Assembly: GCA_947454705.1 (NCBI GenBank)
Contig: CANGKZ010000029.1
Location: forward strand, 488-64,487
Direction of reading: 5' to 3'
Source: Verrucomicrobiota bacterium
GTDB lineage: Bacteria > Verrucomicrobiota > Verrucomicrobiia > Limisphaerales > UBA9464
DNA length: 64,000 nt
Shown piece after piece: positions 1 through 62,748 of the stretch. A program made the translations under genes and the position numbers. Each line of letters begins with the position of its first letter. Positions within the stretch are counted from its first letter, which is position 1. The notes beneath the pieces were generated by a model that saw only the letters and a list, made by a program, of their open reading frames with translations, had not been told where the DNA came from and did not search any database.

Positions 1-695
1 CGCAGTCGGTCCGACACCCCGGCGGCGGCGGAAAACTCCGCAGCCACCTTCAACACCTCGGGACGGTCGAGCACCGTGGCCGTCAGGTTTGGATGCGCCT
101 GCAGCAGGCTGATCGCATACAACCCGGTGCCGCCGCCGACATCCAAAACGTGCGACACGCGTCCGAGCTCCAGCGCCCGGGCCAGGTGCGGTGCGACATT
201 CTTCGCCCGACCCGAAAGCGCGAGCGTGAGGAAACGCGCCGAAGCCTCCTGTTCCATCGCCGACTCCAATCCTTCGCGAAAAATGAACGCCGCACCCGCG
301 CCTTTTTCATCCGCCCCGGCCGGACGATCCGTGCGCAATCGCTCCACCAACGCCAGGACACCCGGAGCCTGCGCGCCAAGACTTCCGTAATCCCCCACGT
401 AAAAAGCTCCTCCGGGAACCAAATGTTCAGCGGCCATCGGGGTCAGCTCCAACGTACCGTCAGAACGCCGCTGCACCGTGCCAAGCGCGCGAAGTGCCGT
501 GAGCAACACGTTCGAAGCCCGGGGCGATAGCCCCAATTCTGAGGCAAGCGACTCGATCAGTTGGGGCCGTTTCCCCAACGCTGCAAACACTCCGAGGTGC
601 GCCACCGCCGCGATCAACAGTTCACTCGCGTAATGGGTACGAAAAGTTTCAAACAGGGGCGTCGGGTCCGTGTTCGGCAGGATCGTGTGGTTCAC
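1..695 (-). CDS. SAM-dependent O-methyltransferase (class I, dimerisation N-terminus); C-terminal end runs off the window
   Basis: Not in the ORF track. Manual reverse translation from GTG at 695 gives MNHTILPNTDPTPLFETFRTHYASELLIAAVAHLGVF, and the same frame near the window start reads VLDVGGGTGLYAISLLQAHPNLTATVLDRPEV (DxGGGxG SAM motif). Confidence 0.85.
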   Translation of the reverse strand, partial: MNHTILPNTDPTPLFETFRTHYASELLIAAVAHLGVFAALGKRPQLIESLASELGLSPRASNVLLTALRALGTVQRRSDGTLELTPMAAEHLVPGGAFYVGDYGSLGAQAPGVLALVERLRTDRPAGADEKGAGAAFIFREGLESAMEQEASARFLTLALSGRAKNVAPHLARALELGRVSHVLDVGGGTGLYAISLLQAHPNLTATVLDRPEVLKVAAEFSAAAGVSDRL

Positions 696-884
696 GCGCC
701 CACAATTCCCGAGGCCGGACGCAACGTCAGCATCGAAACCGGATTCCGCGTTCCCGCAGTTTGCCACCGAACTCTGCGTAACCTTTCCGGCACCAAGCTC
801 CTCTGGCTTGGCGGCTTCGCACGGCACCTGCTGACGAGCCTCTCTGTGTTGGTTCATCGAATAACTGAGTTCATCGGCAAAATC

Positions 885-3800
885 TTGCGATGGAACCGGT
901 GTGTTCAGCCCTTTAAACGCAACGCTCTGACCGCAGCATGGGGCATTTGGGCACTCCGACTGTCGGGGCTTTGCTTACCATTTTTGATCCACTCGCTGGG
1001 TGCGGCCGAGATCACGCTGGATGGGGCGATGAGCGGTCGGGTGTTTGAGGGATTGGGAGCCGTCAGCGCCGGGGCCTCGAGCCGACTGTTGATCGACTAT
1101 CCCGAGAAGCAACGGGCCGAGATCCTCGACTACCTGTTCAAGCCCGGCTTTGGTGCGAGTCTGCAGCATTTGAAGGTGGAGATTGGCGGCGACATCAATT
1201 CCACCGACGGCACCGAGCCCGGACACGAACGCGTGGAAGGAGAGGAGAATTACAACCGTGGATGGGAATGGTGGCTCATCCGTGAAGCCCGTGCGCGCAA
1301 TCCGAATCTCATCCTTGATGCCCTCGCATGGGGAGCCCCGGGATGGATTGGCGGCGGGAATTTCTATTCGCAGGACATGATCGATTACCTGATCCGCTTT
1401 CTCGAGGGAGCCAAGCGGGTTCATGGAATCGAGTTCAACTACCTCGGCATCTGGAACGAGCAACCCTACGACGCCGACTGGATCATCCAACTGCGCCGTG
1501 CCCTCGACGAGGCGGGCTGGACCGGAGTGCGACTTGTTGCGGCGGATCAGTGGGATCACCCCTGGACCCTGGCCGTCGATTTCGCCGAACTCCCCGAGTT
1601 TTCCGCCGCTGTGGATGTAATCGGCGTCCACTACCCCCACGGCTTCGGAAACGACTTCGCCATCGCGCTGGGAAAACCGATTTGGGCCAGCGAGGACGGC
1701 ACCGGTGGCGGCAACGGATTTACCCCCTGGCAGACCGCCAGGGCGCTCGCGAAAACCTACAATCAAAACTACACCCACGCCCGCATCACCAAGACCGAGA
1801 TCTGGAGCCCGGTCACTTCGTACTACGATGACCTTCCGTACAACGACTCAGGATTGATGCGCGCGAATACGCCGTGGTCGGGATTCTACGAGGTGCTGCC
1901 GGCCATCTGGATCACGGCTCACACCACGCAGTTTGCGCAGCCGGGGTGGAGATATCTCGACGGCAGCGCGTCGTCCGATCTCCCCAACGGCGGCAGCATC
2001 GTCACCCTGCAATCGCCCGACGGCGGGGACCTTTCGATCGTGATCGAAACCATCGACGCCCCGGTGGCACAATCTCTGGTGCTGCACGCCGCAAATGGTG
2101 TTCCCTTGAAGCCGCTGGCGCTGTGGCGCACCCGGGACGGCGACGCCTTTTCGTTCCAGGGAATGATCCCCGTGGTGGGCGATGGATGGCAGTTCACCGC
2201 AGAACCCGACTGCGTTTACACCCTCACCACCACCACCGGGCAATCCAGGGGAACCACCACCGTTCCCGCCGCAGCGCCGCTCGGACTCCCCTACTCCGAA
2301 TCCTTCGAATCCCCGTCATTCGCCGGGCTGCCCTTCGCCTTCATGGACCAGGCCGGTGCGTTTGAAGTCGTCCCCGATTCCGAAGGCTACGGAAAGGTGC
2401 TTCAGCAGCAGATTGTCCAGCGCGGCATCGAGTGGCACTATCCGCAGACGCATCCGTTTACAATTGTAGGTGATTCCGCATGGACTGACTACAGCGTCAG
2501 CGTTCGGGTCCGCATTCCCGAGTCGGGCGAGGCCTCGTTGCTCGGACGCGTTGGGGCACCGCTGCCGCGGCCTGCGCCGCCCAACGCGGTGGTGCTCGCG
2601 GTTTTTGCGTCCGGAGACGCTGCGGAGCCGCTGCAGTTCGAATTGCGTCAGTCGGGTTCCGTGATGGCCTCCGGCTCGTTGGATCTGCCCGCAGATTCGC
2701 CGGACTGGCACCAGCTCCGACTCCAGTTCAGCGGGGATCAGATCACCGCATGGATCGATGGATGGATCGTCGCCGACTTCACCAACACCGAGCCCACGCG
2801 CACGACGCACGGACGCGTGGGCGTGGGAAGCGGATGGAACCTGGCGGAATTCGACGACCTCCAAGTTCGCCGCCTGCCGCGCAATGCCCCAAATCTTGCG
2901 TTGAAGGCCGAGGCCATCACCTCGAGCGCCTGGAGCGAAGAGTTCATGCCGATGTTCGTCAACGACGGCGACCCGTCGACCCGCTGGAATTCCGGTCCAT
3001 TGAGCGGCGCTTCGGAATGGATCGAACTCGAATTTTCCACCCCCACGGAATTCAACCGGATCACCCTCACCGAATTCGGGTCGCGGATCCGAGGCTACGT
3101 GGTGGAATCCCGCGACGACGCCCAACGCACCGTCCTCGCCCGCGGCACCTCGCTCCCGGCCGACGGCAACCTCCCGCTGCCCACCACCGTGTCGAGGCAC
3201 GTCCGTCTGACCATCACCGCGATGTCGGATCCGGTTTCGCTGTATGAATTCGGGGTGTACCGGGACCCGACCGATGCGCCATCCGTCCGGATCAGCGAAT
3301 GGATGCTTCACAACACCTCGGCCGTTCGGGATCCGCGCGACGGCGGGTACCATCCCTGGTTCGAGCTTTGGAACACCGGAACCACCCCGGCGGAGTTGGG
3401 AGGCTATTTGATGTCGAACGATTCCTCCCTGTCCACCGCGTCGGAATTCCCCGCCGGCACGGTGCTTCAACCCGGCGAACGGCGGATCGTTTGGTGCGGT
3501 CAGGTCTCGCAGCTTCCGAACTCGCCTGCATCGACAGCCATTCTTTCCGTGCCCTGGATTCCTCAGGAACAGCAAACCCTCGGACTCTACACGGCCGACG
3601 GCATTCCACTCTTTGAAGTGGACCTTGACCCGCAGGGAGAGAATCAAAGCAGCGGCTTTCCCGATGACGGAAGCCCCATGATTCTCGCGCTTTCACGCGC
3701 CACTCCGGGCAGTCCCAACACGCCGCTCGAAGCGCTGCCGGTCGGACGCGAACTCGCCCCGTACCAAGTACGCCTCCCCTTTCGCGGCACGCCGTTCACC

Positions 3801-3947
3801 ACCCACACGGTGTTGGAAGCAGATTCTCCGGGCTCCGATTCCTGGAAACCTGTTCAGACGGTAACCAGCGACGCCGACGGCGTGTTCCAGATTTGGGTCG
3901 ACGCCTTGGAATTCGACAACCGGTTCTTCCGCGCAGAACAGCGCTGA
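885..3947 (+). CDS. Exported GH59 galactosylceramidase/beta-galactosidase-like protein with F5/8 type C (discoidin) domain, lamin-tail domain and C-terminal F[FY]R domain
   Basis: GH59 motifs GASSRLLIDYP, LKVEIGGD.NSTDGTEP, acid/base WNE and nucleophile WASED. NLAL...DGDPSTRW marks the discoidin domain and ISEW...WFELWN the LTD. A hydrophobic signal-like N-terminus precedes AEITLDG. Start is uncertain: the ORF opens at 561 but overlaps the divergent methyltransferase. Confidence 0.85.
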   Translation: MRWNRCVQPFKRNALTAAWGIWALRLSGLCLPFLIHSLGAAEITLDGAMSGRVFEGLGAVSAGASSRLLIDYPEKQRAEILDYLFKPGFGASLQHLKVEIGGDINSTDGTEPGHERVEGEENYNRGWEWWLIREARARNPNLILDALAWGAPGWIGGGNFYSQDMIDYLIRFLEGAKRVHGIEFNYLGIWNEQPYDADWIIQLRRALDEAGWTGVRLVAADQWDHPWTLAVDFAELPEFSAAVDVIGVHYPHGFGNDFAIALGKPIWASEDGTGGGNGFTPWQTARALAKTYNQNYTHARITKTEIWSPVTSYYDDLPYNDSGLMRANTPWSGFYEVLPAIWITAHTTQFAQPGWRYLDGSASSDLPNGGSIVTLQSPDGGDLSIVIETIDAPVAQSLVLHAANGVPLKPLALWRTRDGDAFSFQGMIPVVGDGWQFTAEPDCVYTLTTTTGQSRGTTTVPAAAPLGLPYSESFESPSFAGLPFAFMDQAGAFEVVPDSEGYGKVLQQQIVQRGIEWHYPQTHPFTIVGDSAWTDYSVSVRVRIPESGEASLLGRVGAPLPRPAPPNAVVLAVFASGDAAEPLQFELRQSGSVMASGSLDLPADSPDWHQLRLQFSGDQITAWIDGWIVADFTNTEPTRTTHGRVGVGSGWNLAEFDDLQVRRLPRNAPNLALKAEAITSSAWSEEFMPMFVNDGDPSTRWNSGPLSGASEWIELEFSTPTEFNRITLTEFGSRIRGYVVESRDDAQRTVLARGTSLPADGNLPLPTTVSRHVRLTITAMSDPVSLYEFGVYRDPTDAPSVRISEWMLHNTSAVRDPRDGGYHPWFELWNTGTTPAELGGYLMSNDSSLSTASEFPAGTVLQPGERRIVWCGQVSQLPNSPASTAILSVPWIPQEQQTLGLYTADGIPLFEVDLDPQGENQSSGFPDDGSPMILALSRATPGSPNTPLEALPVGRELAPYQVRLPFRGTPFTTHTVLEADSPGSDSWKPVQTVTSDADGVFQIWVDALEFDNRFFRAEQR

Positions 3948-16375: not shown

Positions 16376-18742
16376 TCACTGCTGGGTCGTCTTGTCGGTC
16401 GCGCTGGGTTTACCCTTCAGCTTCTTGGCGTCCCGGCGGCTCTTGGCGTCGTCAGTTCCAAAGTCCTTCTCCAGCTTCTGGATGTTGCCAGAGCTTTCGC
16501 GCTGCTCGCGGGTGTAATTCGCCACATCCGACGGCTTGGGCAGGATGGTGGGCCGCACCAGGATCATCAGCTCGGTCTTGGATCCCGAGTTCGACTTGTT
16601 CTTGAACAGGTTTCCAAGCAGCGGGATGTCCTTCAAATACGGCACCCCGGAGTTGGCGGTGGTGCGGTTGTTGTCGAGGTAGCCGCCCATGAGGATCACG
16701 TCGCCACTGCGCACCGTTACGATGGATTCAGCCTCCTTGTTGTCGGTCGTCGGAGGTGCTCCGGTGGAGGCATTGGCTCCAGCGGACACACCGGAAATGC
16801 TCTGCGAGACTTGCATCACCACGAGGTTGTCGGGGGTCACGAACGGGGTCACCGACAGCGTGATACCCACCGGGATGGTGGTGTACTGGTAGCTCGCCAC
16901 ACCGCCGTAGTTATATCCGCCCTGCTGGAACGGGATCTGGCTGCCGGAGAAGAACGAGGCGGACACGGCGTGCGAAGTAATGATGCGCGGGCGCTGGATG
17001 ATGTCCACGCGGCTGTCGGTCGCGGCGGCATTCACCGTCACGTCCCAGTTGTTGCCGAGGATCGCCGAGTAGCCGGCGCCGGCGCCGGAGGCATAGGTCG
17101 TACCGTTGGTCAGCGCACCCTTCAGGAAATTGATTCCGCCACCGAGATTGCCCGAATCATTATTGATACTGCCTCCACCCGTGACCGTGTCGTTGAACTT
17201 CTTGGGCCGCTGTCCGGCGGTGACCCCGAAGGTGCGGCTGTTGCCGAGAGCGACGTTCATCACGATGCCTTCGATGAGCACCTGAGGGAGAAGCGTGTCC
17301 ACCTTTTCCAGCACGCGCTTGATGGTGGCCAGGTCCTTCTTGCTGGCGTACACGATGAGGGAATTCGAACGCGGATCGGGAGTGATCTGAGCATCGGTCA
17401 CCAGCGGTTCCATCTGGGCGCCGAGTGCGCCGGCACCGCCGCGGTTCACCTGATTGTATCGACCGGCGAGAGTTCCCGCCCGCCCACCGGCTGCGGTCGC
17501 CGCACCAGCGGCACCCGGGGAGATCACCGTGGTTCCATTGGCCTGCGGGGTGTAGCTGCCGGCGGAATAATTGCCATAGCTGGTTCCCACGCCGTAGCCA
17601 CCCACTCCGGAGCTGTATCCGCCGGAGCCGTAGCCGGAACCGCGAATGCCCGAAGAACTGCCGTAGCCTCCGAGGCCGCCGCTGCTGCCAAATCCACCTC
17701 GTCCGCGGCCGGTCATGCCACCACCCATTCCGCCCAAGCCCCCGCCGAGACTGCTTCCGGCTCCGGTCAACGCGGCTCCACCACCGCCACCTCCTCCGAT
17801 GACGCTGCTCATGGTGGTGTAGATGTCCTCCACCCGCCCATATTTGATGCTGATCACTTCCAACACGAAGTCCTGTTCCACCTCGACATCCACCTTGGTC
17901 AGGATTTCGAGCATGCGCTTCACGTTGATCGCGTAATCGCGGAGCACGAGCGTCTTGGTGCTGGGCAGTCCGATGATGCCATTCGGATTCTTGGCAAAGC
18001 CCTTGAGGGTCTCAACCGCCTCCTCCACCTGGATGTGCTTCACCTGGGCAATGTGGGTGACGAACTGGCTGGCTTCCGGATACGCGGCCGAATTCGTGGC
18101 CCGGCTGAACGCGCCGCCTTCCTGCATGGCCTGCGCGGTGGGCACGGCGAGGACCGCCTTGTCACCGGTCGGAATCATGGTGACACCATTCAACGCCAGA
18201 ATGGTGTCATACATCTGCACGCGCTCCTCCGGGGTGAGCTTCATGCGGGCATTGAAATCAATCTGCGCCTGGGGGAGTCCGGTACCGCGAAGCACGATGC
18301 GGCCCGAGGCCACCGAGTACTCATCGAGGAACTGGTTCATCGGCATCTGCTTGAACGAAATCACCGATTCATCGGCATCGCCCGAGGCATCTGCGTCGGC
18401 TCCTGCATTGGCCCCCGGTCCGCCGGGAGCAGGTTGGAAACCGCCGTTCTGGGGCGGAACAGCACCTGCCGCGGACGTTGCCCCGGGAGCGCCGGGAGTC
18501 GTGGGCGGAGGAACAGGGCGCGGGAAATTTCCAGGAATCGCAGGCAACCGCGGGGAAGCGGCACTGGCGGAATTGGGGACCGCGCCCGGCGCACCGGGGG
18601 CACCGGGAGCGTTGTTGGTGCGGACGTCCGACACCGGGCGCCGCTGGGGCAGACCCGGAGGGGCCTGACGGGCGGCAACTGGCGAGGCGGCCAGCAGGGC
18701 CAAAGTCAGGCCGGCAAGGAGACGAAGCGGGATCGAGTTCAC
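16376..18742 (-). CDS. gspD: Type II secretion-like secretin (GspD/PulD family)
   Basis: Signal peptide, N-domains (ITPDPRSNSLIVYA), QVLIEGIV, GITLSVTPFV, GVPYLKDIPLLGNLFK, ELMILVRPTI. Confidence 0.9.
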   Translation of the reverse strand: MNSIPLRLLAGLTLALLAASPVAARQAPPGLPQRRPVSDVRTNNAPGAPGAPGAVPNSASAASPRLPAIPGNFPRPVPPPTTPGAPGATSAAGAVPPQNGGFQPAPGGPGANAGADADASGDADESVISFKQMPMNQFLDEYSVASGRIVLRGTGLPQAQIDFNARMKLTPEERVQMYDTILALNGVTMIPTGDKAVLAVPTAQAMQEGGAFSRATNSAAYPEASQFVTHIAQVKHIQVEEAVETLKGFAKNPNGIIGLPSTKTLVLRDYAINVKRMLEILTKVDVEVEQDFVLEVISIKYGRVEDIYTTMSSVIGGGGGGGAALTGAGSSLGGGLGGMGGGMTGRGRGGFGSSGGLGGYGSSSGIRGSGYGSGGYSSGVGGYGVGTSYGNYSAGSYTPQANGTTVISPGAAGAATAAGGRAGTLAGRYNQVNRGGAGALGAQMEPLVTDAQITPDPRSNSLIVYASKKDLATIKRVLEKVDTLLPQVLIEGIVMNVALGNSRTFGVTAGQRPKKFNDTVTGGGSINNDSGNLGGGINFLKGALTNGTTYASGAGAGYSAILGNNWDVTVNAAATDSRVDIIQRPRIITSHAVSASFFSGSQIPFQQGGYNYGGVASYQYTTIPVGITLSVTPFVTPDNLVVMQVSQSISGVSAGANASTGAPPTTDNKEAESIVTVRSGDVILMGGYLDNNRTTANSGVPYLKDIPLLGNLFKNKSNSGSKTELMILVRPTILPKPSDVANYTREQRESSGNIQKLEKDFGTDDAKSRRDAKKLKGKPSATDKTTQQ

Positions 18743-18756
18743 AGGAGGAGTCCTTC

Positions 18757-19461
18757 CTATTTCTTGGCGGGCTTGTTGGTGGCTGGAGCCGCGGGAGCGC
18801 CCTTGGGGGCAACCACCGGTTGAGCCGGCCGTTTCGCCGGAGGCGCTTGAGGCGCCTTGGGCTTCTTTTGGAAACTGGCAACCAAGGTCATGGTTGCTTG
18901 AAGTCGGGTTTGGGAAGAATCCAGCCGGAGGCGGTTCAATTCGCGAACCCGGATCATCGAGTCGCCCGCTCCCAAGGAGTGGAGGAAATCCACCAACTCA
19001 CCTTCACCCGCGATGACTTCAACGGTCATCGACACTTCATCAAAAAACGCATTCGTCTGACTCAGCGCCCGGTTCGGAGTCAATCGCACCACGCTCACGC
19101 CGCGGGTCGCCGCCTCGGTATAGATCGAGGACTGCACGCGGTTCGCCTGCTCTTCCTCGAGCACTCCGCCGGCGCCGGTGCGCTGCAGGTCCTTCAATTG
19201 ACGCTCGTAGGTGGCCTTTTTGCCCAGTTCCACGGCGAACTGCGATCGACGCCGCTCCTGCTTGTCGATCTCGGTCGTCAACTTCGACCACTCCCCGAAG
19301 TAGGGCCAGATGATCCAGTAATTCAGCACCAGCGCGAGGAGCACCACGCCGCCGAGCACGAGCCGACGTTCCTGCGGATCCAGGTTCAGTCGATCGAGCC
19401 AGCCAAGCAACGCGCTGCGCTGGGCGGCGGGGGCCGCGGGAGTGGAATCAGTCTGGCTCAT
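18757..19461 (-). CDS. GspM/PilO-like inner-membrane platform protein
   Basis: L.PQERRLV plus a single TM, coiled coil and ferredoxin-like C-terminus. Position between the GspL/PilN-like gene and the secretin. Confidence 0.72.
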   Translation of the reverse strand: MSQTDSTPAAPAAQRSALLGWLDRLNLDPQERRLVLGGVVLLALVLNYWIIWPYFGEWSKLTTEIDKQERRRSQFAVELGKKATYERQLKDLQRTGAGGVLEEEQANRVQSSIYTEAATRGVSVVRLTPNRALSQTNAFFDEVSMTVEVIAGEGELVDFLHSLGAGDSMIRVRELNRLRLDSSQTRLQATMTLVASFQKKPKAPQAPPAKRPAQPVVAPKGAPAAPATNKPAKK

Positions 19462-20882
19462 GGCGTTTCAGCGCGTTTGAGTTCTGCCTTGAAGCTCCAG
19501 CGGACGGATCCGCCAGCGCCCTGAGCCGGGAAAAAGGTTGCAGGATCCACCTTGGCGAAGAGGGGCTGGCCGTTCAGCTCGATCTTCTTCAAATCCGAAT
19601 TGAACTTGGTGACCTCGGCGGTGTTGTCGGCGTTGACCGTGCCGGTGAGTTCCAAAGCGCGACCCCGGGTAAAATCGAGCTGGGTGAGATTGAGCGTTTC
19701 CGGCAGGGCTTCAATCGCCGCACGCCACGCATCGAGCGCTGCAAATCGGAGCGCCACCTGATCCTGAAGGATCGCCACCTGCGCCTTGGTCTGGAGCGCA
19801 TTGGTGTAGCTCCCCGCAATCGCATTGCCGGCATCGCGAACCGAATCCAGCCGGTACTCCTGCACCTTCAGTCCGATCATGAAGCAGAAGACGAAGGCCA
19901 GATACAGCACGGCCGCCACCGACAGCGCGCGAATCCAAAGCGAATCAATGAACTCGTTGCGACGCTTCTGAACGATCTCCTCCGGAATTAACGACCGGGG
20001 TTTTTCAATCAACTGACGACGCGCCGCAGACTCCGCCACTCGGGCCGGATCCATCCGCGGGGAAAGTTTCACCGGCTGGCCCGACCATTCCACGAGCGCC
20101 GATTCCAAATCCGCCGCAGCCCCGGGAGCGGACAGCACGGTCACCGCAGGAAGCGCCTGCAGCCAGCCGTTCCACTCGCCGGCCCAGGCCACGCGGGTCA
20201 ATTGCTCCACCAAATGAGCCGATGCTTCGGCGCCTTCGGGAAGATGAATCAATCCCACCTCACGCCAGCGCCCGCCGAGATACCATCCCGCGAGAATCGA
20301 GCGGCCGGTCGGAATTGCATCCACCACCAGCCACAATCCATCCGCATCCGGACGGCATCCCTTCAATTCGCGCACCAGCGGGAACTCGAGCTGATCCGCC
20401 ACGTAGCCCTCTTGGAGCAGGCGCCCGAGCAGATCCTCCACCGCGCTGCGAGCCACCAACGTGACCCACGCGGTGGTCGTCGGCGCGACGCCGCCTTCCG
20501 CAGGCGAAGCGGCATTCACAGACCCAGCAGCAGACTCCACCGTTTCCACGGTCCAAACCACCTGGGCCGGAGGAAGCGGGGAAAGGCGTTCGAGCTGAAA
20601 CTCGATCATGCCCTGAATTTCTTCCGCATTCGACGACGGGAGATCGACCACACGGACGAACACCGAGTCCGCCGGCAGCCAGGCAACGTTCAACTGGGGC
20701 TGAAGCAGCTGACGCCAGTCGCGTCCGGCGATCACCGAAGGAAGCGGCTTTCCCGATTCCACCGGGAGCATTCCAGCCGCCACCGGTTCACCCGATTTAA
20801 CCTGAAATCGCCAAGCCGTCCGCGGTCCGCCGAAAAGCGAAACCACGTTGCAGTTTTGGAAGCGGGGAGAGTTGGCCTTCAT
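19458..20882 (-). CDS. GspL / PilM-PilN-like platform protein
   Basis: Cytoplasmic N-domain (FVRVVDLP...IEFQLERLSPLP), one TM near aa 315-340, PilN-like C-terminus. Operonic with the ATPase. Confidence 0.68.
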   Translation of the reverse strand: MKANSPRFQNCNVVSLFGGPRTAWRFQVKSGEPVAAGMLPVESGKPLPSVIAGRDWRQLLQPQLNVAWLPADSVFVRVVDLPSSNAEEIQGMIEFQLERLSPLPPAQVVWTVETVESAAGSVNAASPAEGGVAPTTTAWVTLVARSAVEDLLGRLLQEGYVADQLEFPLVRELKGCRPDADGLWLVVDAIPTGRSILAGWYLGGRWREVGLIHLPEGAEASAHLVEQLTRVAWAGEWNGWLQALPAVTVLSAPGAAADLESALVEWSGQPVKLSPRMDPARVAESAARRQLIEKPRSLIPEEIVQKRRNEFIDSLWIRALSVAAVLYLAFVFCFMIGLKVQEYRLDSVRDAGNAIAGSYTNALQTKAQVAILQDQVALRFAALDAWRAAIEALPETLNLTQLDFTRGRALELTGTVNADNTAEVTKFNSDLKKIELNGQPLFAKVDPATFFPAQGAGGSVRWSFKAELKRAETP

Positions 20883-20884
20883 GG

Positions 20885-22627
20885 TCAGCGCACCCTTTCC
20901 TCAACCAGACTGCGGACATGCTCCTCGTTCTGCGTCACGCGCAGGACTTCCTCCACCGTCGTGACCCCGGCCCGCACCTTGCGCCAGCCGTCGTCACGCA
21001 GCGTCCGCATGCCCTGGGCCCGGGCCGCCATCGCGATCGTCGAAGCCGCCGCCCGGTTCATCACCAGCGGGCGGATCGCATCGTTCACCAACAAAAGTTC
21101 ATGAATGCCAGTCCGGCCCTGGTATCCGAGCTGACGGCACTCCTCGCATCCCTCGCCCTTCCAGAACACCGCCGTGTCCAGTTCCGCCTCGGGGAACCCG
21201 CACTTCACCAGATAATCGCGATCCAGCTTCTGCGGGATCTTGCAATGCGGGCAAATGGTACGAACCAGACGTTGAGCCATGACCGCCTCGAGCGACGACG
21301 CCACGAGGAACGGCTCGATGCCCATGTCGATCAAGCGAGTGAACGCGCTGGGGGCGTCGTTCGTGTGAAGCGTGCTGAACACCAAGTGACCGGTCAGCGC
21401 CGCGCGGATGCCGATTTCGGCGGTCTCGAGGTCGCGGATTTCGCCGACCATGATCACGTTGGGATCCTGGCGGAGAATATGACGCAGCCCCATCGCGAAG
21501 GTCAGGCCGATGTCAGATCGCACCGGGATCTGATTGATGCCCTTGAGCTCATACTCGACCGGTTCCTCGATCGTGATGATGCGTTTGGTGACTGAGTTGA
21601 TCGTCGAAAGGAACGCGTAGAGCGTCGTGGACTTGCCCGAACCGGTCGGCCCGGTGACCAGGAAGATCCCGTGCGGCTTGACGATGATGTCGCGGATCGC
21701 GTTTTCCTCGTCGGGGGCGAAACCGAGGCGTTCCAGACCAAAAAAGATCTTACCGCGGGTGAGCAAACGCAGCGAAACCGACTCGCCCCAAACGGTCGGG
21801 ACCGTGGACACGCGGATGTCGATTTCCTCGCCCTTGATCCGGACGTTGATTCGACCGTCCTGCGGCAGGCGCTTCTCGGCGATGTTCATTCCGCTCATCA
21901 CCTTGATGCGCGAAATCAGCGCCGCCTGATACCGCTTGATCTGCGGCGGCAGCGGGGTCTGGTGCAGGATGCCGTCAATGCGGTATCGGATGCGGAGTTC
22001 ATCCTCCGACGGCTCAAAGTGAATGTCCGTGGCGCGATCCTTGAACGCTTCCCAGATGACCTGGTTGACGAACTTGATGACGCTGGCGTCCTGATCGTCC
22101 CCGGTGATTTCGCGATCGGAGGAAATTTCTAGTTCCAGCGGCTCGTCCTCGGCCATTTCGTCGAGGGTCTCCGCACCGACGCCGTAGTACTTCTTGAGCG
22201 TCTTCTCGATCTCAGCCCGTGTGGCCAGCGCGAACCGAACCGGACCACGCGCATCGAAGGCCACCGCTGCCTGCATCGCGGGATCGAAAGGATCGTGGGT
22301 GGCCACCTGCAGGCCTTGCGCATCTTCGGCGATCGGGATCAAAGAAAACTGGAACGCAACCTTGGTGGAAATGCGTTTCCGGGCGGCGGGATCCGGAGTC
22401 AGGCGGGCCAGCTCGACATACGGCCAGCCGACGGCGACCGCGAGCTTCTGAAGGAATTGATCCTCCGACATGCCGGCCTCCCGGGCGAAGAACGCCAACT
22501 GCCCCTCGCCACCGGGCTCCGTGCGGGCTTCGTTGACCTTCCGCCAGGCGGAGTTCCAATCGGCGAACTGCGCCCTGGTGGCGAGTCCGGCGCGTTCGAG
22601 AATGGTCTGGAGTGGCGTATGGCCCAT
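20885..22627 (-). CDS. gspE: GspE/PilB secretion/pilus assembly ATPase
   Basis: TDIHFEP, RLPQDGR, Walker A GPTGSGKSTT, LRQDPNVIMVGEIRD, TGHLVFSTLHTN, tetracysteine CPHC...CEEC. Confidence 0.93.
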   Translation of the reverse strand: MGHTPLQTILERAGLATRAQFADWNSAWRKVNEARTEPGGEGQLAFFAREAGMSEDQFLQKLAVAVGWPYVELARLTPDPAARKRISTKVAFQFSLIPIAEDAQGLQVATHDPFDPAMQAAVAFDARGPVRFALATRAEIEKTLKKYYGVGAETLDEMAEDEPLELEISSDREITGDDQDASVIKFVNQVIWEAFKDRATDIHFEPSEDELRIRYRIDGILHQTPLPPQIKRYQAALISRIKVMSGMNIAEKRLPQDGRINVRIKGEEIDIRVSTVPTVWGESVSLRLLTRGKIFFGLERLGFAPDEENAIRDIIVKPHGIFLVTGPTGSGKSTTLYAFLSTINSVTKRIITIEEPVEYELKGINQIPVRSDIGLTFAMGLRHILRQDPNVIMVGEIRDLETAEIGIRAALTGHLVFSTLHTNDAPSAFTRLIDMGIEPFLVASSLEAVMAQRLVRTICPHCKIPQKLDRDYLVKCGFPEAELDTAVFWKGEGCEECRQLGYQGRTGIHELLLVNDAIRPLVMNRAAASTIAMAARAQGMRTLRDDGWRKVRAGVTTVEEVLRVTQNEEHVRSLVEERVR

Positions 22628-22779
22628 GAATATCGCGTGGCGACGTCGAGTTGAACTCTCCGGCTGGGAAAAAGTTGCGCGGAAAAGGCGATGAGAATGG
22701 GTCGGTGGCCGGAGGTCGCGCACTTTTTCAAAAATTCCCAGCTTGCTCCCGTCGCCGCAGATGACCACATTCCGCGCCG

Positions 22780-22868
22780 CCAGGGCCCATGGAACGCGGA
22801 CTTGTGAACCCCGCCAGGGCCGGAAGGCAGCAACGGTAACTTGCTCCCGTCTGCCGTGGTCACCCTGG
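22780..22868 (+). ncRNA. ffs: Signal recognition particle RNA (4.5S, small bacterial SRP)
   Basis: Domain IV core GTGAACCCCGCCAGGGCCGGAAGGCAGCAACGGTA with a GGAA tetraloop. Terminal helix CCAGGG/CCCTGG. Canonical position upstream of dnaX. Confidence 0.9.
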
Positions 22869-22986
22869 TTCCCTTCACTTTTTTGGCCGTAAACAAACGC
22901 AGCGCAGTCGATTCGTCCGTCCCAGTCCTTGGACTCTGGTCCAGTTAGAACCGTCAGCCCGCGAACCTCCAACGTCCCGACGACAG

Positions 22987-24825
22987 GTGTCCTACCAGGT
23001 TTTAGCGCGCAAATACCGTCCTCAACGGTTTGAGGACGTGGTCGGCCAGGAGCACGTCACCCAGACGCTCGCCAACGCCATCCGCGCCGGTCGCATCGCC
23101 CACGCCTACCTCTTCTGCGGCCCCCGCGGCACGGGCAAGACCACGCTCGCCCGCATTTTCGCCAAGGCCCTGAACTGCACCGCTGGCCCGAAGCCCGACT
23201 TCGACGATGCCGATCCGCGGGTGAAGGAAATCACCGAAGGCCGATCGCTCGACGTCCTGGAAATCGACGGTGCCTCGAACAACGGTGTTGAACAGGTCCG
23301 CGAACTCCGCGAGACCGCCCGCTTCGCCCCCGCTTCGTCGAAGTTCAAGATCTACATCATCGACGAAGTTCACATGCTCTCAACCGCGGCGTTCAACGCC
23401 CTGTTGAAAACGCTCGAGGAGCCGCCCGCGCATGTGAAATTCCTCTTCGCCACCACCGACCCGGAAAAGGTCCTGGTGACGATCCTCTCCCGCTGCCAGC
23501 GCTTTGACCTTCGCCGCATCCCCGCGGCCCTGATCGTCAAACACCTCGCCTGGATCGCCGGCAAGGAAGGCGTGACCGTCGAGGACGCCGCCCTGCAGGC
23601 CATCGCCCGCGGTGCCGACGGCGGCATGCGCGATGCCGAATCGACCCTCGATCAGCTGATCAGTTTTTGCGGCAACACCATCGTCGAGTCCGACGTGCTC
23701 TCGATGTTCGGCCTCGCCGCACGGGCGCAGTTGCTCGACCTCACCACCGCAATTCTCGAAGGCGAATCCGCCCGCGCCCTGCAACTGCTCGACACCCTCG
23801 CCCGCAGCGGCAAGGACCTCGGCCGCCTGCTCGGCGACCTGCTGAATCATTTTCGAAACCTGCTGCTGTTCCAGATTTCCAAGGGCGACCCCGGGTTGCT
23901 CGAAGTAGGTGAACCAGAATTGATCGTGCTTTCGGCGCAGTCCTCGAAAATCGAGACCGAGCCGCTCACGCGGATTCTCGAAGTCCTCTCAGCCGCCGAT
24001 GGACGCCAGCGCGAATCCGCCTCCAAGCGAATCTTCCTCGAGGTCACCGTCCTCAAGGCCATCCAGGCCCGCGAAGCCACGAGCCTCGATCAGGTGCTCA
24101 AGCAGTTGAAGGCCCTGCGCGACGGCGCCGGCCCGGCTGCATCGGCGGCACCCGCGCCCGCACGCGCCGCTTCGCCAATCGCTCCCGCAGCCGCAGCACC
24201 GGCAACAACTCCAGCTCCTGCTGCTGCTCCTGCTCCGAAACCCGCACCGGCTCCGACGCCTGCTCCCGCGCCCGCACCGACCGCTGCAGCCCCCGCCGCT
24301 CCGGCCCCTGCGCCGGCGCCAGCTTCGACTCCTGCACCAGCCCCGGCGCCCGCGGCAGTTCAGATTCCCGACGACATGGAAGCAATCTTCCAAGCGTTGG
24401 TCGCGAAATTGTCCCCGACCCAGCGCATCATGCTGGCGGAGGGCCGACCGGTCTCCATGACCCCGCGGCGGCTCACGATTGGAGTTTCGGCCGAACACTT
24501 CAGCCTGCTGGATCCGAAGCGCGACGAACCCCAGCTCACCGCCAAACTCTCCGAACTCGGGTTCGGGGATCGCTCGGTCAGCCTCGTCGCCCTCGATACG
24601 CCGCCCCCGACTCCGCCCCCTTCGGCCGGATCAGGATCCGCTCCAGCGCCCGCCCCATCGCGTCCCGCGCCTGCTCCGGTCAAAGCCCCAGAAGCCAAGC
24701 CCGTTAAGGTCGCGCCGATCCAGCTGAACCGGGAGGAATTCCTCAAGGATCCGCTGATTCAACAGGCCCTCGAAGTCTTCAAGGGGCAGCTCGTCGATGT
24801 CCGCGCCCCGGGCATCGAAACGTAA
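22987..24825 (+). CDS. dnaX: DNA polymerase III subunit gamma/tau
   Basis: YQVLARKYRP, GPRGTGKTT, EIDGASN, IIDEVHML, SRC, and a Pro/Ala-rich linker. Confidence 0.97.
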   Translation: MSYQVLARKYRPQRFEDVVGQEHVTQTLANAIRAGRIAHAYLFCGPRGTGKTTLARIFAKALNCTAGPKPDFDDADPRVKEITEGRSLDVLEIDGASNNGVEQVRELRETARFAPASSKFKIYIIDEVHMLSTAAFNALLKTLEEPPAHVKFLFATTDPEKVLVTILSRCQRFDLRRIPAALIVKHLAWIAGKEGVTVEDAALQAIARGADGGMRDAESTLDQLISFCGNTIVESDVLSMFGLAARAQLLDLTTAILEGESARALQLLDTLARSGKDLGRLLGDLLNHFRNLLLFQISKGDPGLLEVGEPELIVLSAQSSKIETEPLTRILEVLSAADGRQRESASKRIFLEVTVLKAIQAREATSLDQVLKQLKALRDGAGPAASAAPAPARAASPIAPAAAAPATTPAPAAAPAPKPAPAPTPAPAPAPTAAAPAAPAPAPAPASTPAPAPAPAAVQIPDDMEAIFQALVAKLSPTQRIMLAEGRPVSMTPRRLTIGVSAEHFSLLDPKRDEPQLTAKLSELGFGDRSVSLVALDTPPPTPPPSAGSGSAPAPAPSRPAPAPVKAPEAKPVKVAPIQLNREEFLKDPLIQQALEVFKGQLVDVRAPGIET

Positions 24826-59247: not shown

Positions 59248-60732
59248 CTATCGTTCAGAAATCTCTGTCCTGTAGAACGTGGATTCCGCTGTGGCCTCAT
59301 CGAGGCTCAACTGGAAAAGGCCGTCTGAGGATTTTATCATTCGAGTTAATTCCCAAAGTTCCAGATCCGTAGACTTGTACACGTTCGCCGAGCGACCATG
59401 GGCACTCCTGAATGTCCAGTTGAGGAGGGATTTACCGTTTTCTCCGGGGATCCTCTTAAAACTGAGCGTTTCTATCGACTGATCTACGACCGCCGCAGGG
59501 TAAGTGACCACTGCATTCGTTGTGCCGTCAAATGTCCCAAATCCTGGAAGCATGAGCATCGCAGAGCTTTGATCTCCCGGCGGGTACACCAAATACACTG
59601 GGCCAACTTTGTTGAGAACAATCCGACCTCCAGGTTCAATCGTTCCTGCCCCGTCCCCTCCTGGCAGCACGTTGGATCGTGTCCATCCCCCAATCGTTCT
59701 CCGAACCAGATTAGTTACTCCAAGATCCTGGGCCGAGAAAAGGATGTCCGGCGTAACAATCCGCCGAGTGACTCTCTGAGTGATCACGGTTTCTCCCGAA
59801 ACAATCCGGTCGACGAAATCGTGTCGCGTGTTGGCTTGAGTGGCGGAATTGTAAAAGAGTCGTTTGAACCGAGGGCGGACGACACCAGGACGAAAGCCTG
59901 ATATCACCGGCTTGGAGCCAGACGATTCCTTCCAATCAAACCCCGAAGGCAGGGTCTCCCAGCGGATTCGGTTGGTGGAATAGATGTATCTTAATGCCGC
60001 TGCATCATCCCGCGTCAAAGCAGTTGCGAACCTTCCATTCTCCCTCCCCTCCCCTAGCATTGTGGCAAATGGGAGAAAACAGGAGACGGTTGAACTAACC
60101 GGAGCGGAGAAATCGACTGGAAATGGTGCTATTCCCACGCCGGCATGAGCTGGGAGTTCAATGATTCGGTAGGTGAATAAGACACCATTGATTGATTCCG
60201 TCGGAAGAATGGAATAGGCGTCAAAGTTTCTGTTTACGACCGAATAGGATCCCCCCGTAACGGTGTCAACCGAGCGGCTGCGAAGACAGAATACATTTTC
60301 CTCCGCAGGCCCTACGCCCAGTTGTTCCAAGAGCGCCGACAATGCAAATGATTTAAGATCGACCCTCTCTAGATTCTCTGCGGCACGATTGAAACCAAAA
60401 ACATAGGTCGGAAACCGATCCAGATCGATGTTCTCCGGCAGATCATTGAGGATGGCGACCGCCGATTCGACCGCAGCAATTCCAGAATGCCCGAAATACG
60501 ACACAAACGAAGCGTCGAATCCGTAGACAATTTCTGGAATACACCATCGGTACTCGTCACCGAGATTCATCGGCCCACCAGGGGATCCGTCCAACCCATA
60601 GGAAAGTGATGAATCCATCCAGCTCTCCCTCGGGCCAAGCAGCGAAAACGCCGAAGCGTGGAGAAGGAACTGAATCGCTAGAAGACAGCGCAGCCTTCGA
60701 CAGGCCAATGCAAAGGAGGCCGCGAGTTTCAT
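59248..60732 (-). CDS. Exported hypothetical protein with a degenerate matrixin-like domain and C-terminal FYR domain
   Basis: Signal peptide ending ASA/FSLLG. Motifs YRW...YGFD, DLKSFALSALLEQLG, LTRDDAAALRYIY. C-terminal STDL..W...FYR. Confidence 0.7.
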   Translation of the reverse strand: MKLAASFALACRRLRCLLAIQFLLHASAFSLLGPRESWMDSSLSYGLDGSPGGPMNLGDEYRWCIPEIVYGFDASFVSYFGHSGIAAVESAVAILNDLPENIDLDRFPTYVFGFNRAAENLERVDLKSFALSALLEQLGVGPAEENVFCLRSRSVDTVTGGSYSVVNRNFDAYSILPTESINGVLFTYRIIELPAHAGVGIAPFPVDFSAPVSSTVSCFLPFATMLGEGRENGRFATALTRDDAAALRYIYSTNRIRWETLPSGFDWKESSGSKPVISGFRPGVVRPRFKRLFYNSATQANTRHDFVDRIVSGETVITQRVTRRIVTPDILFSAQDLGVTNLVRRTIGGWTRSNVLPGGDGAGTIEPGGRIVLNKVGPVYLVYPPGDQSSAMLMLPGFGTFDGTTNAVVTYPAAVVDQSIETLSFKRIPGENGKSLLNWTFRSAHGRSANVYKSTDLELWELTRMIKSSDGLFQLSLDEATAESTFYRTEISER

Positions 60733-60905
60733 CAAGAATTCCTATTGTTCAAAGTCCACCTTAATTTCAGCGAGCAACCACCCATCGGGATTGCGTCCTC
60801 AACCAACTTGCTTCCACCTGTTTGATAAGCCTTCCCTGTCCGCCTACCGCATTTTCGCCCGTGCTTCTCTGCGGTTTAACGCTTCTTCAACCGCCGGAAT
60901 TGGGA

Positions 60906-61680: not shown

Positions 61681-62667
61681 TCACTTCAACTCGGCAGCGC
61701 GATTGGCCGGCACAGCAGGCGCCGGGGCGAGCGCGGGTGAAGGCACTCCGGGGATGCTCGATTCATTTTGAAAATCACCCGAAAGGTACTCCACCAGGGT
61801 CTTCACCTGATGCGGAGAAAGGATTCCGCCGTTCTTGGAGGCGAAGGCGGGCATCAGCGATCCAACGCGCCCTTCGCTGACCCACTGCGTCCAGTAGGCC
61901 GCATCGGTGGGTTTGTTGAGGGCGCGCAAATTCGGCACCATCGAGGCCCGATGCTCGCCCTCGTGGCAGATGCCGCAAGCGGCCACGTAGAGCGCCTTGC
62001 CGGTCTTGCCAATCGTGGGCGTGACGTGGCAGTTCGCGCAGTCACCACGGAACACCGCCTGGCGGTCCACCGCGGCCACCTTGAGATTGCGATCCCGATC
62101 CATGGCAGTGAGTGGGGAATTCGGATCCACCCGCGGAATCGAGACCTGAACCATCAGCGGAATGATTCCCACCGACGAGGTCACGGTCACCGTCTTGACC
62201 AAGTTTCCCATCTTCCCGCGCAAATCGACAGTCACCCCGATGTCGCCATGGTCTCCCGGCTGCAACACCCAGGGCTGGCTTGGGAGCTGGGCCACGGTGC
62301 AGCCGCAGCTGGTATGAACACCGGCGATGGTGACCACTTCCTTGGAAACATTGGTCAGACCAAATTTGAACTTCGCCTCCGTCTCCCCGGCCTTAGCTTG
62401 GTATTGAAGGCTCCGGGTCGTCCATGCGATCGCGTTGGTGTTTTCAACGATCTGCATCGCACCCGGCGGCGGCGGCACGACGGCACCAGGAAGCCCGGGC
62501 GCTGGAGCAAATCCGCCGGCTGGCGGAGGCGTCTGACTCGACGCAGCCCAGGCTCCAAAACCGAAACAAACGCACCCTGCGGCGACCAGGAGACCCGCCA
62601 TTGGGCGCTTCAACACCTGGGAAAACATCCGCTTTGCTCCGACAGGTTGGATTCGGCTGAGGATCAT
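61681..62667 (-). CDS. Exported DUF1573 (Ig-like) plus diheme c-type cytochrome protein
   Basis: Signal peptide, DUF1573 hallmark HTSCGCT...PG..G.I.V, two heme motifs CANCH and CGICH, MPAF axial Met. Confidence 0.78.
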   Translation of the reverse strand: MILSRIQPVGAKRMFSQVLKRPMAGLLVAAGCVCFGFGAWAASSQTPPPAGGFAPAPGLPGAVVPPPPGAMQIVENTNAIAWTTRSLQYQAKAGETEAKFKFGLTNVSKEVVTIAGVHTSCGCTVAQLPSQPWVLQPGDHGDIGVTVDLRGKMGNLVKTVTVTSSVGIIPLMVQVSIPRVDPNSPLTAMDRDRNLKVAAVDRQAVFRGDCANCHVTPTIGKTGKALYVAACGICHEGEHRASMVPNLRALNKPTDAAYWTQWVSEGRVGSLMPAFASKNGGILSPHQVKTLVEYLSGDFQNESSIPGVPSPALAPAPAVPANRAAELK

Positions 62668-62748
62668 ACGTTGACGGACTAAAGCAGCGTCGGAGGGATT
62701 CGGCGAGTGTGTTTTGCTGGCACAGTCCTGGTTTTAGTGGACCGGTTT

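What the first reader, a model, noticed from the sequence alone, without database searches (positions are those of the whole stretch)
3768..3947. Shared C-terminal 'W...DG[VL]FQ...F[FY]R' domain on unrelated exported proteins: candidate lineage-specific sorting signal
Seen: the GH59 protein ends LPFRGTPFTTHTVLEADSPGSDSWKPVQTVTSDADGVFQIWVDALEFDNRFFRAEQR. The unrelated protein at 59248-60732 ends LNWTFRSAHGRSANVYKSTDLELWELTRMIKSSDGLFQLSLDEATAESTFYRTEISER (59251-59427). They share length (~55-60 aa), a central Trp, DG[VL]FQ[IL]xxD and F[FY]R a few residues from the end. Both have N-terminal signal-like peptides, and the tail has no TM helix, so it is not PEP-CTERM. Inference: a small beta-rich C-terminal targeting domain, analogous to the Bacteroidota T9SS CTD. 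It could route passengers to an outer-membrane export or anchoring machine, possibly the T2SS-like system in this window.
Basis: partly seen in the sequence, partly recalled or inferred. Interest (0 to 1): 0.75.

Follow-up and report, generated by a model that had tools for sequence, protein, structure and literature searches.

The report
Uncatalogued FN3-like tail on exported proteins
The two look-alike protein tails belong to a large, unnamed family of small beta-sandwich end-modules that cap about a hundred different exported proteins in this Verrucomicrobiota genome, probably as a shared localisation or docking handle, although that role is not yet shown.

Summary
The two tails are divergent members of a ~75-residue domain (…G..Y.vE.S.dL..W…RFYRV) with 98 copies in 96 ORFs of this 5.4-Mb genome. 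89 of the 98 lie within 15 residues of the stop; a reversed-sequence decoy gave 0 hits. Passengers are unrelated exported proteins: proteases, glycosidases, phosphoesterases, cyclophilins, CotH/LTD, Ig/cadherin adhesins. No Pfam-A or NCBIfam model covers it. AlphaFold gives a six-strand FN3-like sandwich. It is abundant across the order (30 of 31 genomes), patchy in the phylum (68 of 151) and matches 67,797 cluster representatives worldwide.

The sorting-signal reading is only partly supported. The domain is not a T9SS CTD (hhalign 2.9%). Six proteins carry it right after the signal peptide, other genomes hold tandem arrays, and orthologues gain or lose it. This fits a portable docking or retention module better than an obligate C-terminal export signal. 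The window's GspD-like secretin is a core gene of the order, kept even in the one domain-less relative, so the proposed link has no specific support. Function remains inferred.

The parts
3699..3944 (+). Terminal FN3-like 'W...RFYR' domain of the GH59 protein (stop codon at 3945-3947). The confidently folded core is about 3765-3944.
   Evidence: Profile envelope is residues 1053-1134 of the 1134-aa stop-to-stop ORF, iE 8.3e-11. Leave-out model gives iE 8.7e-5. Genome search hit at G000:C29:4198-4428, E 2.3e-13. AF2 model has five strands, with pLDDT >90 over most of the last 60 residues.
59251..59469 (-). Terminal domain of the uncharacterised 495-aa protein; a divergent family member.
   Evidence: The iterated profile lists this copy among its 98 hits, envelope 425-497 of 497. 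Leave-out model gives only iE 0.082. The genome search E 1.5e-12, with the tail itself in the query alignment. Eight homologues carry tails with iE 1e-13 to 6e-7.
561..3947 (+). Passenger 1: GH59 glycosidase with GH59 C-terminal lectin domain, F5/8 type C domain, a lamin-tail-like domain (below Pfam cut-off), then the terminal domain. The true start codon is uncertain and probably lies downstream of 561.
   Evidence: Pfam: Glyco_hydro_59 1.5e-110, Glyco_hydro_59_C 3.7e-18, F5_F8_type_C 7.4e-10, LTD 5.7e-7 (30.3 bits, cut-off 34.3). The same-genus orthologue keeps the tail; a more distant 808-aa orthologue ends by a stop after the F5/8C domain.
59248..60735 (-). Passenger 2: 495-aa protein of no known family, with a signal-peptide-like N-terminus.
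   Evidence: No Pfam or NCBIfam family at E<=0.1. 40 homologues including the query itself, named 'hypothetical protein' or unnamed: 9 with the tail, about 20 ending after the conserved core, about 11 with an Ig-like extension (PF05345 He_PIG precomputed on 6). SP-like N-terminus by heuristic.

Best explanation
Shown: the two tails are copies of one uncatalogued domain family of about 75 residues, predicted to fold as a compact six-strand FN3/Ig-like beta-sandwich. The conserved Gly-x-x-Tyr, Trp and Arg-Phe-Tyr-Arg positions look like core or last-strand positions. In this uncultured Verrucomicrobiota genome about 100 Sec-type exported proteins with unrelated passengers carry one copy. About 91% of copies sit at the extreme C-terminus, and the protein ends 4-5 residues after the [FY][FY]R motif. 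A few copies sit directly behind the signal peptide. The module is gained, lost and swapped between orthologues, sometimes as an LTD+tail cassette. Inferred: it is a portable, position-tolerant handle placed at a free end of the mature protein that gives many different exported proteins a common localisation. The most likely mode is non-covalent docking or retention at the cell envelope, on a surface glycan or protein partner or on other copies of itself. In that sense it works like dockerins or SLH/CBM-type anchoring modules, and not like an obligate, cleaved C-terminal export signal of the T9SS kind. No dedicated machine was identified.
For: Family reality: 98 hits in 96 ORFs with a converging profile, 99 by a second tool, 0 decoy hits. 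Terminal bias: 89 of 98 within 15 aa of the stop, envelope ending on the last residue in 73 of 98, and [FY][FY]R followed by 4 or 5 residues in 63 of 89 terminal copies. Exported context: SP-like N-termini in 79 of 96 members against 1053 of 2623 controls. Passengers in all 96 ORFs scanned include 7 Peptidase_S8, M4, M10, GH59, GH44, Metallophos, Phosphoesterase, 2 cyclophilins, arylsulfotransferase, GSDH+cytochrome c, 10 CotH, and RCC1, LamG, Ig and cadherin-like modules; 19 have no family. Position tolerance: the layout signal peptide, domain, passenger occurs in C40, C34, C6, C11 (GDSL) and C18 (metallo-beta-lactamase fold); one copy lies before DUF3500 in C17 and one is internal in C4. Modularity: in the 495-aa family 9 of 40 have the tail, about 20 have none and about 11 have an Ig-like extension. 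GH59 orthologues occur with and without it. The LTD+tail segment is 29-39% identical to the ends of CotH proteins. Fold: pLDDT 86.3, six strands; the structural neighbours are dominated by FN3 domains, Z 6.4-7.4. Not catalogued: no family matched more than 2 of the 40 tails in Pfam or more than 1 in NCBIfam. The 30 nearest Atlas clusters are all 'hypothetical'.
Against: No experiment or proteomic datum on localisation was available. No ligand, partner or machine was found. Gene-neighbourhood enrichment was weak: the best family had 19 copies near members against 10.6 expected, uncorrected p 0.008. The conserved residues look like ordinary beta-sandwich core positions, so no binding site is evident. 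Tandem arrays of 2-30 copies in the 150 top global hits are also typical of plain structural stalk domains. Some passengers (cyclophilin, GSDH-cytochrome c, arylsulfotransferase) are classically periplasmic, so a surface location is not implied. The strong C-terminal bias would equally fit an export signal.
Confidence: 0.4

Rival explanations
1. Generic structural or adhesive FN3-like module with no localisation role. It would be a stable beta-sandwich cap or spacer that spreads by 3'-end domain shuffling, so its terminal position reflects how cassettes are added, not a function.
For: The fold is ordinary FN3-like with only middling Z. Conserved positions look like core residues. Arrays of up to 30 copies occur in other proteins. 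The tail travels with LTD as a cassette. It is dispensable in orthologues. No partner or neighbour gene was found.
Against: A single copy ending on the very last residue, in 73 of 98 cases and on about 90 unrelated passengers, is far more position-specific than the Pfam-annotated Ig, cadherin-like and lamin-tail domains of the same proteins, which lie upstream of it. When not C-terminal it tends to sit at the other free end, right after the signal peptide.
Confidence: 0.3
2. One reading: a C-terminal outer-membrane export signal, functionally like the T9SS CTD, recognised by a translocon such as the window's GspD/GspE-like T2SS.
For: The C-terminal bias, about 100 cargo-like proteins per genome and unrelated passengers parallel T9SS cargo counts (56 and 31 CTDs in the two control genomes). 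63 of 68 domain-positive genomes have the secretin's N-terminal region against 15 of 83 negative ones, OR 57. At family level the table is [[19,1],[3,7]], tighter than the photolyase control at OR 14.6 and [[13,7],[1,9]]. The five exceptions are weak hits or fragmented assemblies, and one search ran with a stricter filter. T2SS recognises folded proteins (general knowledge), so a copy at either end could work.
Against: No homology to T9SS CTDs. Por_Secre_tail gives 0 hits with a working positive control. N-terminal, internal and tandem copies exist. The secretin is a core gene: 31 of 31 in the order, including domain-less G025 at E 4e-34; 7 of 8 in family f17 and 8 of 8 in f31, where only 2 of 8 and 3 of 8 have the domain. 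Generic secretins occur in 59 of 83 domain-negative genomes. The unrelated control gene shows that phylogeny alone gives OR about 15. With 96 scattered members, two genes 13 and 36 kb from the cluster mean nothing.
Confidence: 0.15
3. A miniature carbohydrate-binding module, a remnant of or convergence on the discoidin/CBM32 pattern, that targets enzymes to polysaccharide substrates and not to the cell.
For: The profile against PDB sequences gives its best hits on the discoidin-type chitosan-binding modules of a glucanase/chitosanase (4zxe, 2rv9; E 2.5e-4, query 23-79 on chain 54-111). F5_F8_type_C_2 was hit by 2 of 40 tails at E 0.002. Many passengers are glycosidases or lectin-like.
Against: The hits are marginal and cover under half of a discoidin domain. 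The predicted fold is FN3-like with six strands, not an eight-strand jelly roll. Many passengers (proteases, cyclophilins, phosphoesterases, CotH kinases) have no polysaccharide substrate.
Confidence: 0.1

Closest known systems
T9SS C-terminal domain (type A CTD, Pfam Por_Secre_tail PF18962) of Bacteroidota/FCB bacteria
   Same: Both are small beta-sandwiches of about 75-90 residues at the extreme C-terminus of dozens to about a hundred Sec-exported proteins per genome, with unrelated passengers. Even a superficially similar W...YFYRL strand appears in the CTD consensus. The abstracts of PMC4804311 and PMC11285876 (search listing only) describe the CTD as an Ig-like 3+4 beta-sandwich export signal that is cleaved by PorU.
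   Different: There is no profile homology (hhalign probability 2.9%). PF18962 gives 0 hits in this genome against 56 and 31 in control genomes. Six predicted strands, FN3-like. Copies occur after the signal peptide, internally and in tandem. No SprA_N match was found, though that search had no positive control.
Type I dockerin modules of cellulosomal enzymes (Firmicutes)
   Same: Works-like analogy, from general knowledge. Dockerins are small modules, mostly C-terminal but sometimes N-terminal or internal, on many unrelated secreted enzymes in one genome. They are gained and lost between orthologues and give all carriers one shared destination.
   Different: Dockerins are Ca-binding helical EF-hand-like repeats, while this domain is an all-beta sandwich. 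No cohesin-like partner family was identified. Self-association could not be tested because the complex prediction queue stayed full.
Fibronectin type III domains of bacterial extracellular enzymes (Pfam fn3 PF00041)
   Same: The predicted fold matches: the best 50 structural neighbours are mostly FN3 domains, Z 6.4-7.4, rmsd 2.4-5 A over 70-87 residues. FN3 domains can also form tandem arrays.
   Different: The Pfam fn3 model hits only 1 of 40 tails, at E 0.023. This domain is shorter, and its strict placement at the protein's end is not an FN3 habit.
PEP-CTERM / exosortase sorting signal (PF07589)
   Same: It is a C-terminal tag on exported proteins of environmental Gram-negative bacteria, and it is present in the same genome (8 hits).
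   Different: PEP-CTERM is a roughly 24-residue motif plus transmembrane helix plus basic tail. The present domain is a 75-residue soluble beta fold without a hydrophobic helix, it sits on other proteins, and it is about 12 times more numerous here.

Membership tests
T9SS type A CTD (Por_Secre_tail, PF18962) | Sequence match to the family model | tested here: not met
   PF18962 is not among the families hit by any of the 40 tails at E<=1. It gives 0 matches in the whole genome, while the same search gives 56 and 31 matches in an Ignavibacteria and a Fibrobacteraceae genome.
T9SS type A CTD (Por_Secre_tail, PF18962) | Profile-level homology to genuine CTDs | tested here: not met
   hhalign of A2 (38 tails) against A3 (17 genuine CTDs): probability 2.9%, 28 aligned columns.
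T9SS type A CTD (Por_Secre_tail, PF18962) | Always at the extreme C-terminus, one per protein | tested here: not met
   89 of 98 copies are terminal. Six sit right after the signal peptide or ahead of the passenger, three are internal, and one protein has three copies. Arrays of up to 30 copies occur elsewhere.
T9SS type A CTD (Por_Secre_tail, PF18962) | Seven-strand 3+4 Ig-like sandwich | tested here: inconclusive
   AF2 predicts six strands with FN3-like neighbours, Z up to 7.4. No solved CTD stood out, but that does not exclude the fold.
T9SS type A CTD (Por_Secre_tail, PF18962) | T9SS translocon genes in the genome (SprA/Sov) | tested here: inconclusive
   PF14349 SprA_N gives 0 matches in the genome, but nothing rang in the control genomes either.
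T9SS type A CTD (Por_Secre_tail, PF18962) | Cleavage by PorU and attachment to anionic LPS | not testable with these tools
   This needs proteomics or biochemistry.
PEP-CTERM (PF07589) | PEP motif, transmembrane helix and basic cluster at the C-terminus | tested here: not met
   The tails have no hydrophobic helix (read from the sequence). The 8 PF07589 hits lie on other ORFs.
Fibronectin type III (PF00041) | Match to the Pfam model | tested here: not met
   1 of 40 tails, at E 0.023.
Fibronectin type III (PF00041) | FN3 fold | tested here: inconclusive
   The neighbours are mostly FN3 with Z 6.4-7.4, but Z under 8 may reflect only a common arrangement. Foldseek gave no match at E<=0.001.
Discoidin / F5_F8 type C / CBM32 | Sequence match over the whole domain | tested here: inconclusive
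   The best PDB profile hits are at E 2.5e-4 and cover 57 residues of chains of 136-137 residues. F5_F8_type_C_2 was hit by 2 of 40 tails at E 0.002.
Type II secretion substrate | Dependence of export on GspD/GspE | not testable with these tools
   Only co-occurrence could be tested: OR 57 against control OR 14.6, and the secretin is present in the domain-less G025.

The most novel reading that the evidence does not exclude
Verrucomicrobiota have their own many-cargo protein-targeting system. A portable FN3-like handle, placed at either free end of a mature protein, is recognised in its folded state. The recogniser would be either a GspD-type secretin pathway or a surface docking partner. In this way about a hundred enzymes and adhesins per cell are exported to, or held at, the cell surface. 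This would be a functional counterpart of the Bacteroidota T9SS CTD or the clostridial dockerin, evolved independently.
Probability: 0.3. Interest if true: 0.85.

Novelty: new variant of a known kind. Interest (0 to 1): 0.62.

Why it matters
I am not aware of an established account of how Verrucomicrobiota, major polysaccharide degraders of soil, water and gut, export and retain their many extracellular enzymes (general knowledge; the five literature searches found nothing on this domain). The domain marks about 100 proteins per genome in this order and 67,797 protein clusters worldwide, yet it has no Pfam-A or NCBIfam model. These regions are therefore left unannotated, and the 30 nearest Atlas clusters are all named 'hypothetical protein'. 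A curated model would immediately annotate a large part of the predicted secretome of the phylum. If the handle directs localisation, it gives a simple experimental entry (tail deletion or transplantation) into envelope biology of the PVC group, and a possible display tag for these organisms. If it is only a structural cap, its strict terminal placement still needs an explanation.

Tried and rejected
1. Chance similarity: rejected by profile convergence, 0 decoy hits and the terminal bias.
2. Known family: Pfam and NCBIfam on 40 tails, Pfam on 15 short or all-domain proteins and PDB sequence profiles gave nothing consistent.
3. Specific structural relative: Foldseek gave no match at E<=0.001 for either model. 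The wide VIA search gave only middling, generic Ig/FN3 matches.
4. T9SS CTD homology: rejected.
5. Conserved neighbour gene, like PorP/SprF beside type B cargo: no family near the 77 members in my crude gene set was convincingly enriched.
6. Secretin co-occurrence: the generic secretin core is too widespread (126 of 151). The N-terminal subtype is associated, but phylogeny confounds it. The DUF5690 control was useless at 2 of 151.
RpoC gave the organism names.
8. Self-association: complex prediction with two copies of the tail never entered the queue ('queue full' or 'not sent on'), so nothing is known either way.
10. Literature: five searches (listings and abstracts only, no paper opened) found nothing on this domain. 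Papers outside the held library could exist.
11. Planctomycetota were not tested because no genome handle was available.
Full report
THE OBSERVATION. Both tails are present exactly as quoted. One is at the end of the GH59 ORF (561..3947, +) and the other at the end of a 495-aa ORF (59248..60735, -). Compared directly they share 10 of 32 residues, E 2e-5 for that single comparison. The GH59 protein carries Glyco_hydro_59, its C-terminal lectin domain, an F5/8 type C domain and a sub-threshold lamin-tail domain. The second protein matches no Pfam or NCBIfam family. The tails alone match nothing in either library at E<=10.

The window lies in a 5.45-Mb, 80-contig genome of 62% G+C. A two-sequence profile found only one borderline extra hit, but that hit and two weaker ones lay 2-5 residues from the ends of long ORFs. 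I seeded a profile with these five tails and searched 48,561 stop-to-stop ORFs. It converged (12, 28, 72, 94, 96, 98 domain hits at iE<1e-3) on 98 hits in 96 ORFs. 89 of them lie within 15 residues of the ORF end, and the envelope reaches the very last residue in 73. The genome search, with an alignment of 40 tails (A1), found 99 matches in the genome. Reversed ORFs gave no hit even at iE<1. Fourteen more real hits lie between iE 1e-3 and 1, eight of them terminal. A model built without the window's tails recovers the GH59 tail (iE 8.7e-5) but the other only marginally (iE 0.082). That tail is a divergent member whose homologues carry canonical tails. The consensus reads roughly …v.LtF…pG..Y.vE.S.dL…W..v…G……p……RFYRV. 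In terminal copies the [FY][FY]R motif is followed by 4 or 5 residues and the stop in 63 of 89.

WHO CARRIES IT. All 96 member ORFs were scanned against Pfam (2, 40, 54; for the 4464-aa ORF only the last 2000 residues). The passengers are unrelated:
- 7 subtilases, a thermolysin-type and a matrixin-type protease
- GH59 and GH44
- a calcineurin-like and a phospholipase-C-type phosphoesterase
- 2 cyclophilins, an arylsulfotransferase, a glucose/sorbosone dehydrogenase with cytochrome c, a CAP protein, an Hcp-like protein
- 10 CotH proteins with lamin-tail domains
- RCC1, NHL and Kelch propellers, LamG, Ig, cadherin-like and DUF11-type repeats
- 19 ORFs with no family

None is a typical cytoplasmic protein. 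A permissive signal-peptide heuristic is positive for 79 of 96 members against 1053 of 2623 long, high-GC3 control ORFs. The GH59 ORF itself failed it.

EXCEPTIONS TO THE C-TERMINAL RULE. Nine hits are not terminal. In five proteins the domain follows the signal peptide directly and precedes the passenger: C40, C34, C6, C11 with a GDSL lipase domain, and C18 with a metallo-beta-lactamase fold. In C17 it precedes DUF3500. In C4 it is internal. One subtilase has three copies, two of them internal. The 150 best of the worldwide hits are ranked by summed score; 149 of them hold 2-30 copies by my profile and one holds a single copy. In 113 of the 150 the last copy still ends within 15 residues of the C-terminus. 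The module can therefore repeat and tolerates different positions, but it strongly prefers a free end.

MODULARITY. Of 40 homologues of the 495-aa protein (including the query itself), 9 carry the tail. About 20 stop right after the conserved core, and about 11 carry an Ig-like extension instead, with He_PIG (PF05345) precomputed on 6 of them. The same-genus GH59 orthologue keeps the tail (iE 2.9e-13). A 46%-identical orthologue in another family ends by a stop after the F5/8C domain. The GH59's LTD+tail segment is 29-39% identical to the ends of CotH proteins.

FOLD AND CATALOGUES. With A1 the GH59 tail folds as five strands (mean pLDDT 76.6; the last 60 residues mostly above 90). A typical tail with alignment A2 gives pLDDT 86.3 and six strands. 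Foldseek finds no match at E<=0.001. The exhaustive aligner gives a best Z of 6.9 and 7.4, and for the typical tail the list is dominated by fibronectin type III domains. This is a generic small sandwich with no specific relative. No family matched more than 2 of the 40 tails in Pfam or more than 1 in NCBIfam. Fifteen short or domain-rich global hits gave no consistent Pfam family covering the repeats: only scattered weak matches, plus genuine fn3, Ig or PKD domains on four of them. PDB sequence profiles gave only marginal hits on discoidin-type modules, E 2.5e-4. The 30 nearest ESM Atlas clusters are all 'hypothetical protein', with no common Pfam family and Verrucomicrobiota as the commonest phylum. 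Five literature searches (listings and abstracts only) found nothing on it.

RANGE. The closest named RpoC genes (81% identity) are from uncultured Verrucomicrobiota/Verrucomicrobiae MAGs.
- Among 31 genomes of the genus, family and order, 30 have the domain, with 19-147 matches each (at most 150 candidates scored). G025 (2.6 Mb, 94% complete) has none.
- In an even sample of the phylum, 68 of 151 genomes have it, with whole families negative (f25 0/24, genus g27 1/14, f42 0/5) and others uniformly positive.
- Ten genomes of other groups, reached through RpoC loci, gave 5 matches in a Kiritimatiellia genome, 1 weak match in a Lentisphaerae genome, 1 weak match in a Myxococcota genome (G184, flagged unpublished) and 0 in seven others.
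- Against 1.84 billion cluster representatives the profile finds 67,797 proteins at E<=0.001 and 3,729 at E<=1e-10.
- Planctomycetota were not tested.

COMPARISON WITH KNOWN SORTING SIGNALS. The genome has 8 PEP-CTERM tails, on other ORFs. Por_Secre_tail finds nothing here but 56 and 31 tails in an Ignavibacteria and a Fibrobacteraceae genome, so that negative is meaningful. SprA_N found nothing, but without a positive control. A profile of 17 genuine T9SS CTDs (A3) aligns to the tail profile with probability 2.9%. The resemblance is one of architecture and numbers, not of descent.

THE SECRETIN QUESTION. The window encodes a secretin (16379-18997, -), an unknown 480-aa protein and an ATPase (20888-23056, -). 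Their best NCBIfam models are GspD (289 bits, cut-off 351) and GspE (607 bits, cut-off 630), so the system is T2SS-like. Results over the phylum sample:

| Query | Genomes with it | Both / domain only / query only / neither | OR |
|---|---|---|---|
| Generic secretin core | 126 of 151 | 67 / 1 / 59 / 24 | 27 |
| Secretin N-terminal 330 residues | 78 of 151 | 63 / 5 / 15 / 68 | 57 |
| Photolyase (unrelated control) | 46 of 151 | 39 / 29 / 7 / 76 | 14.6 |

At family level the secretin N-terminus gives [[19,1],[3,7]] and the photolyase gives [[13,7],[1,9]]. Most of the signal is therefore shared phylogeny and lifestyle. A second control gene was too rare to use. Within the order the secretin subtype is in 31 of 31 genomes, including domain-less G025 (E 4e-34). 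It is also in 7 of 8 and 8 of 8 genomes of families where only 2 of 8 and 3 of 8 have the domain. Domain-rich genomes nearly always have the secretin, which is what cargo dependence predicts. It is equally what a core envelope gene predicts. No gene family is convincingly enriched next to member genes.

VERDICT. The family and its terminal habit are established. Its function is inferred. I rate the readings as follows:
- 0.40: a portable docking or retention handle at a free end of exported proteins
- 0.30: a plain structural module
- 0.15: an export signal tied to the T2SS-like secretin
- 0.10: a substrate-binding mini-CBM

Noticed in passing
window 16379-23056 (-): A T2SS-like trio: a secretin (best model GspD, 289 bits, under the 351 cut-off), a 480-aa protein of no family (faint PilM-like hint, E 7e-4) and a GspE-like ATPase with an MshEN domain (607 bits, cut-off 630). 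No GspF or pseudopilin gene was seen beside them in my gene set. The genome holds at least four further secretin-like matches.
   Followed up: partly
L136 = G000:C12:16501-17319 (+): A 273-aa protein with a signal-peptide-like N-terminus, a T6SS_HCP domain (E 1.9e-11) and the terminal domain. An exported Hcp-like protein is unusual.
   Followed up: no
G000:C19:47242-51313 (+), L013, L019, L021: Three adjacent paralogous genes each end in nearly the same copy of the domain, a recent tandem duplication of a tail-bearing gene. One of the three shows a DUF5122 beta-propeller match; the other two match no Pfam family.
   Followed up: no
10 of the 96 member ORFs, e.g. L017, L020, L023-L025, L124, L137, L153, L161, L170: Large exported CotH-kinase proteins with several lamin-tail domains make up a tenth of the carriers. 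The GH59 protein's last ~220 residues (LTD plus tail) resemble their C-termini at 29-39% identity, which suggests cassette transfer.
   Followed up: partly
A3 (T9SS CTDs from L181-L203): The consensus of genuine T9SS CTDs contains W.G…SG.YFYRL. This looks like the W…RFYRV of the present domain, yet the profiles do not align. It is probably convergence on a tyrosine-corner-type strand.
   Followed up: partly
L043 and L046: RpoC genes 80% and 65% identical to this Verrucomicrobiota gene sit in MAGs labelled Pseudomonadales and Candidatus Paceibacterota. Mislabelled or contaminated bins are likely.
   Followed up: no
window 61684-62733 (-): An exported-looking protein with a DUF1573 domain and a cbb3-type cytochrome c domain lies next to the 495-aa gene's neighbourhood and has no terminal domain.
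   Followed up: no
L005 = G000:C40:41670-44681 (+): A 1004-aa ORF with signal peptide, then the domain, then about 880 residues of beta-rich sequence with no Pfam family. If the domain docks by self-association this could be a partner or scaffold.
   Followed up: no
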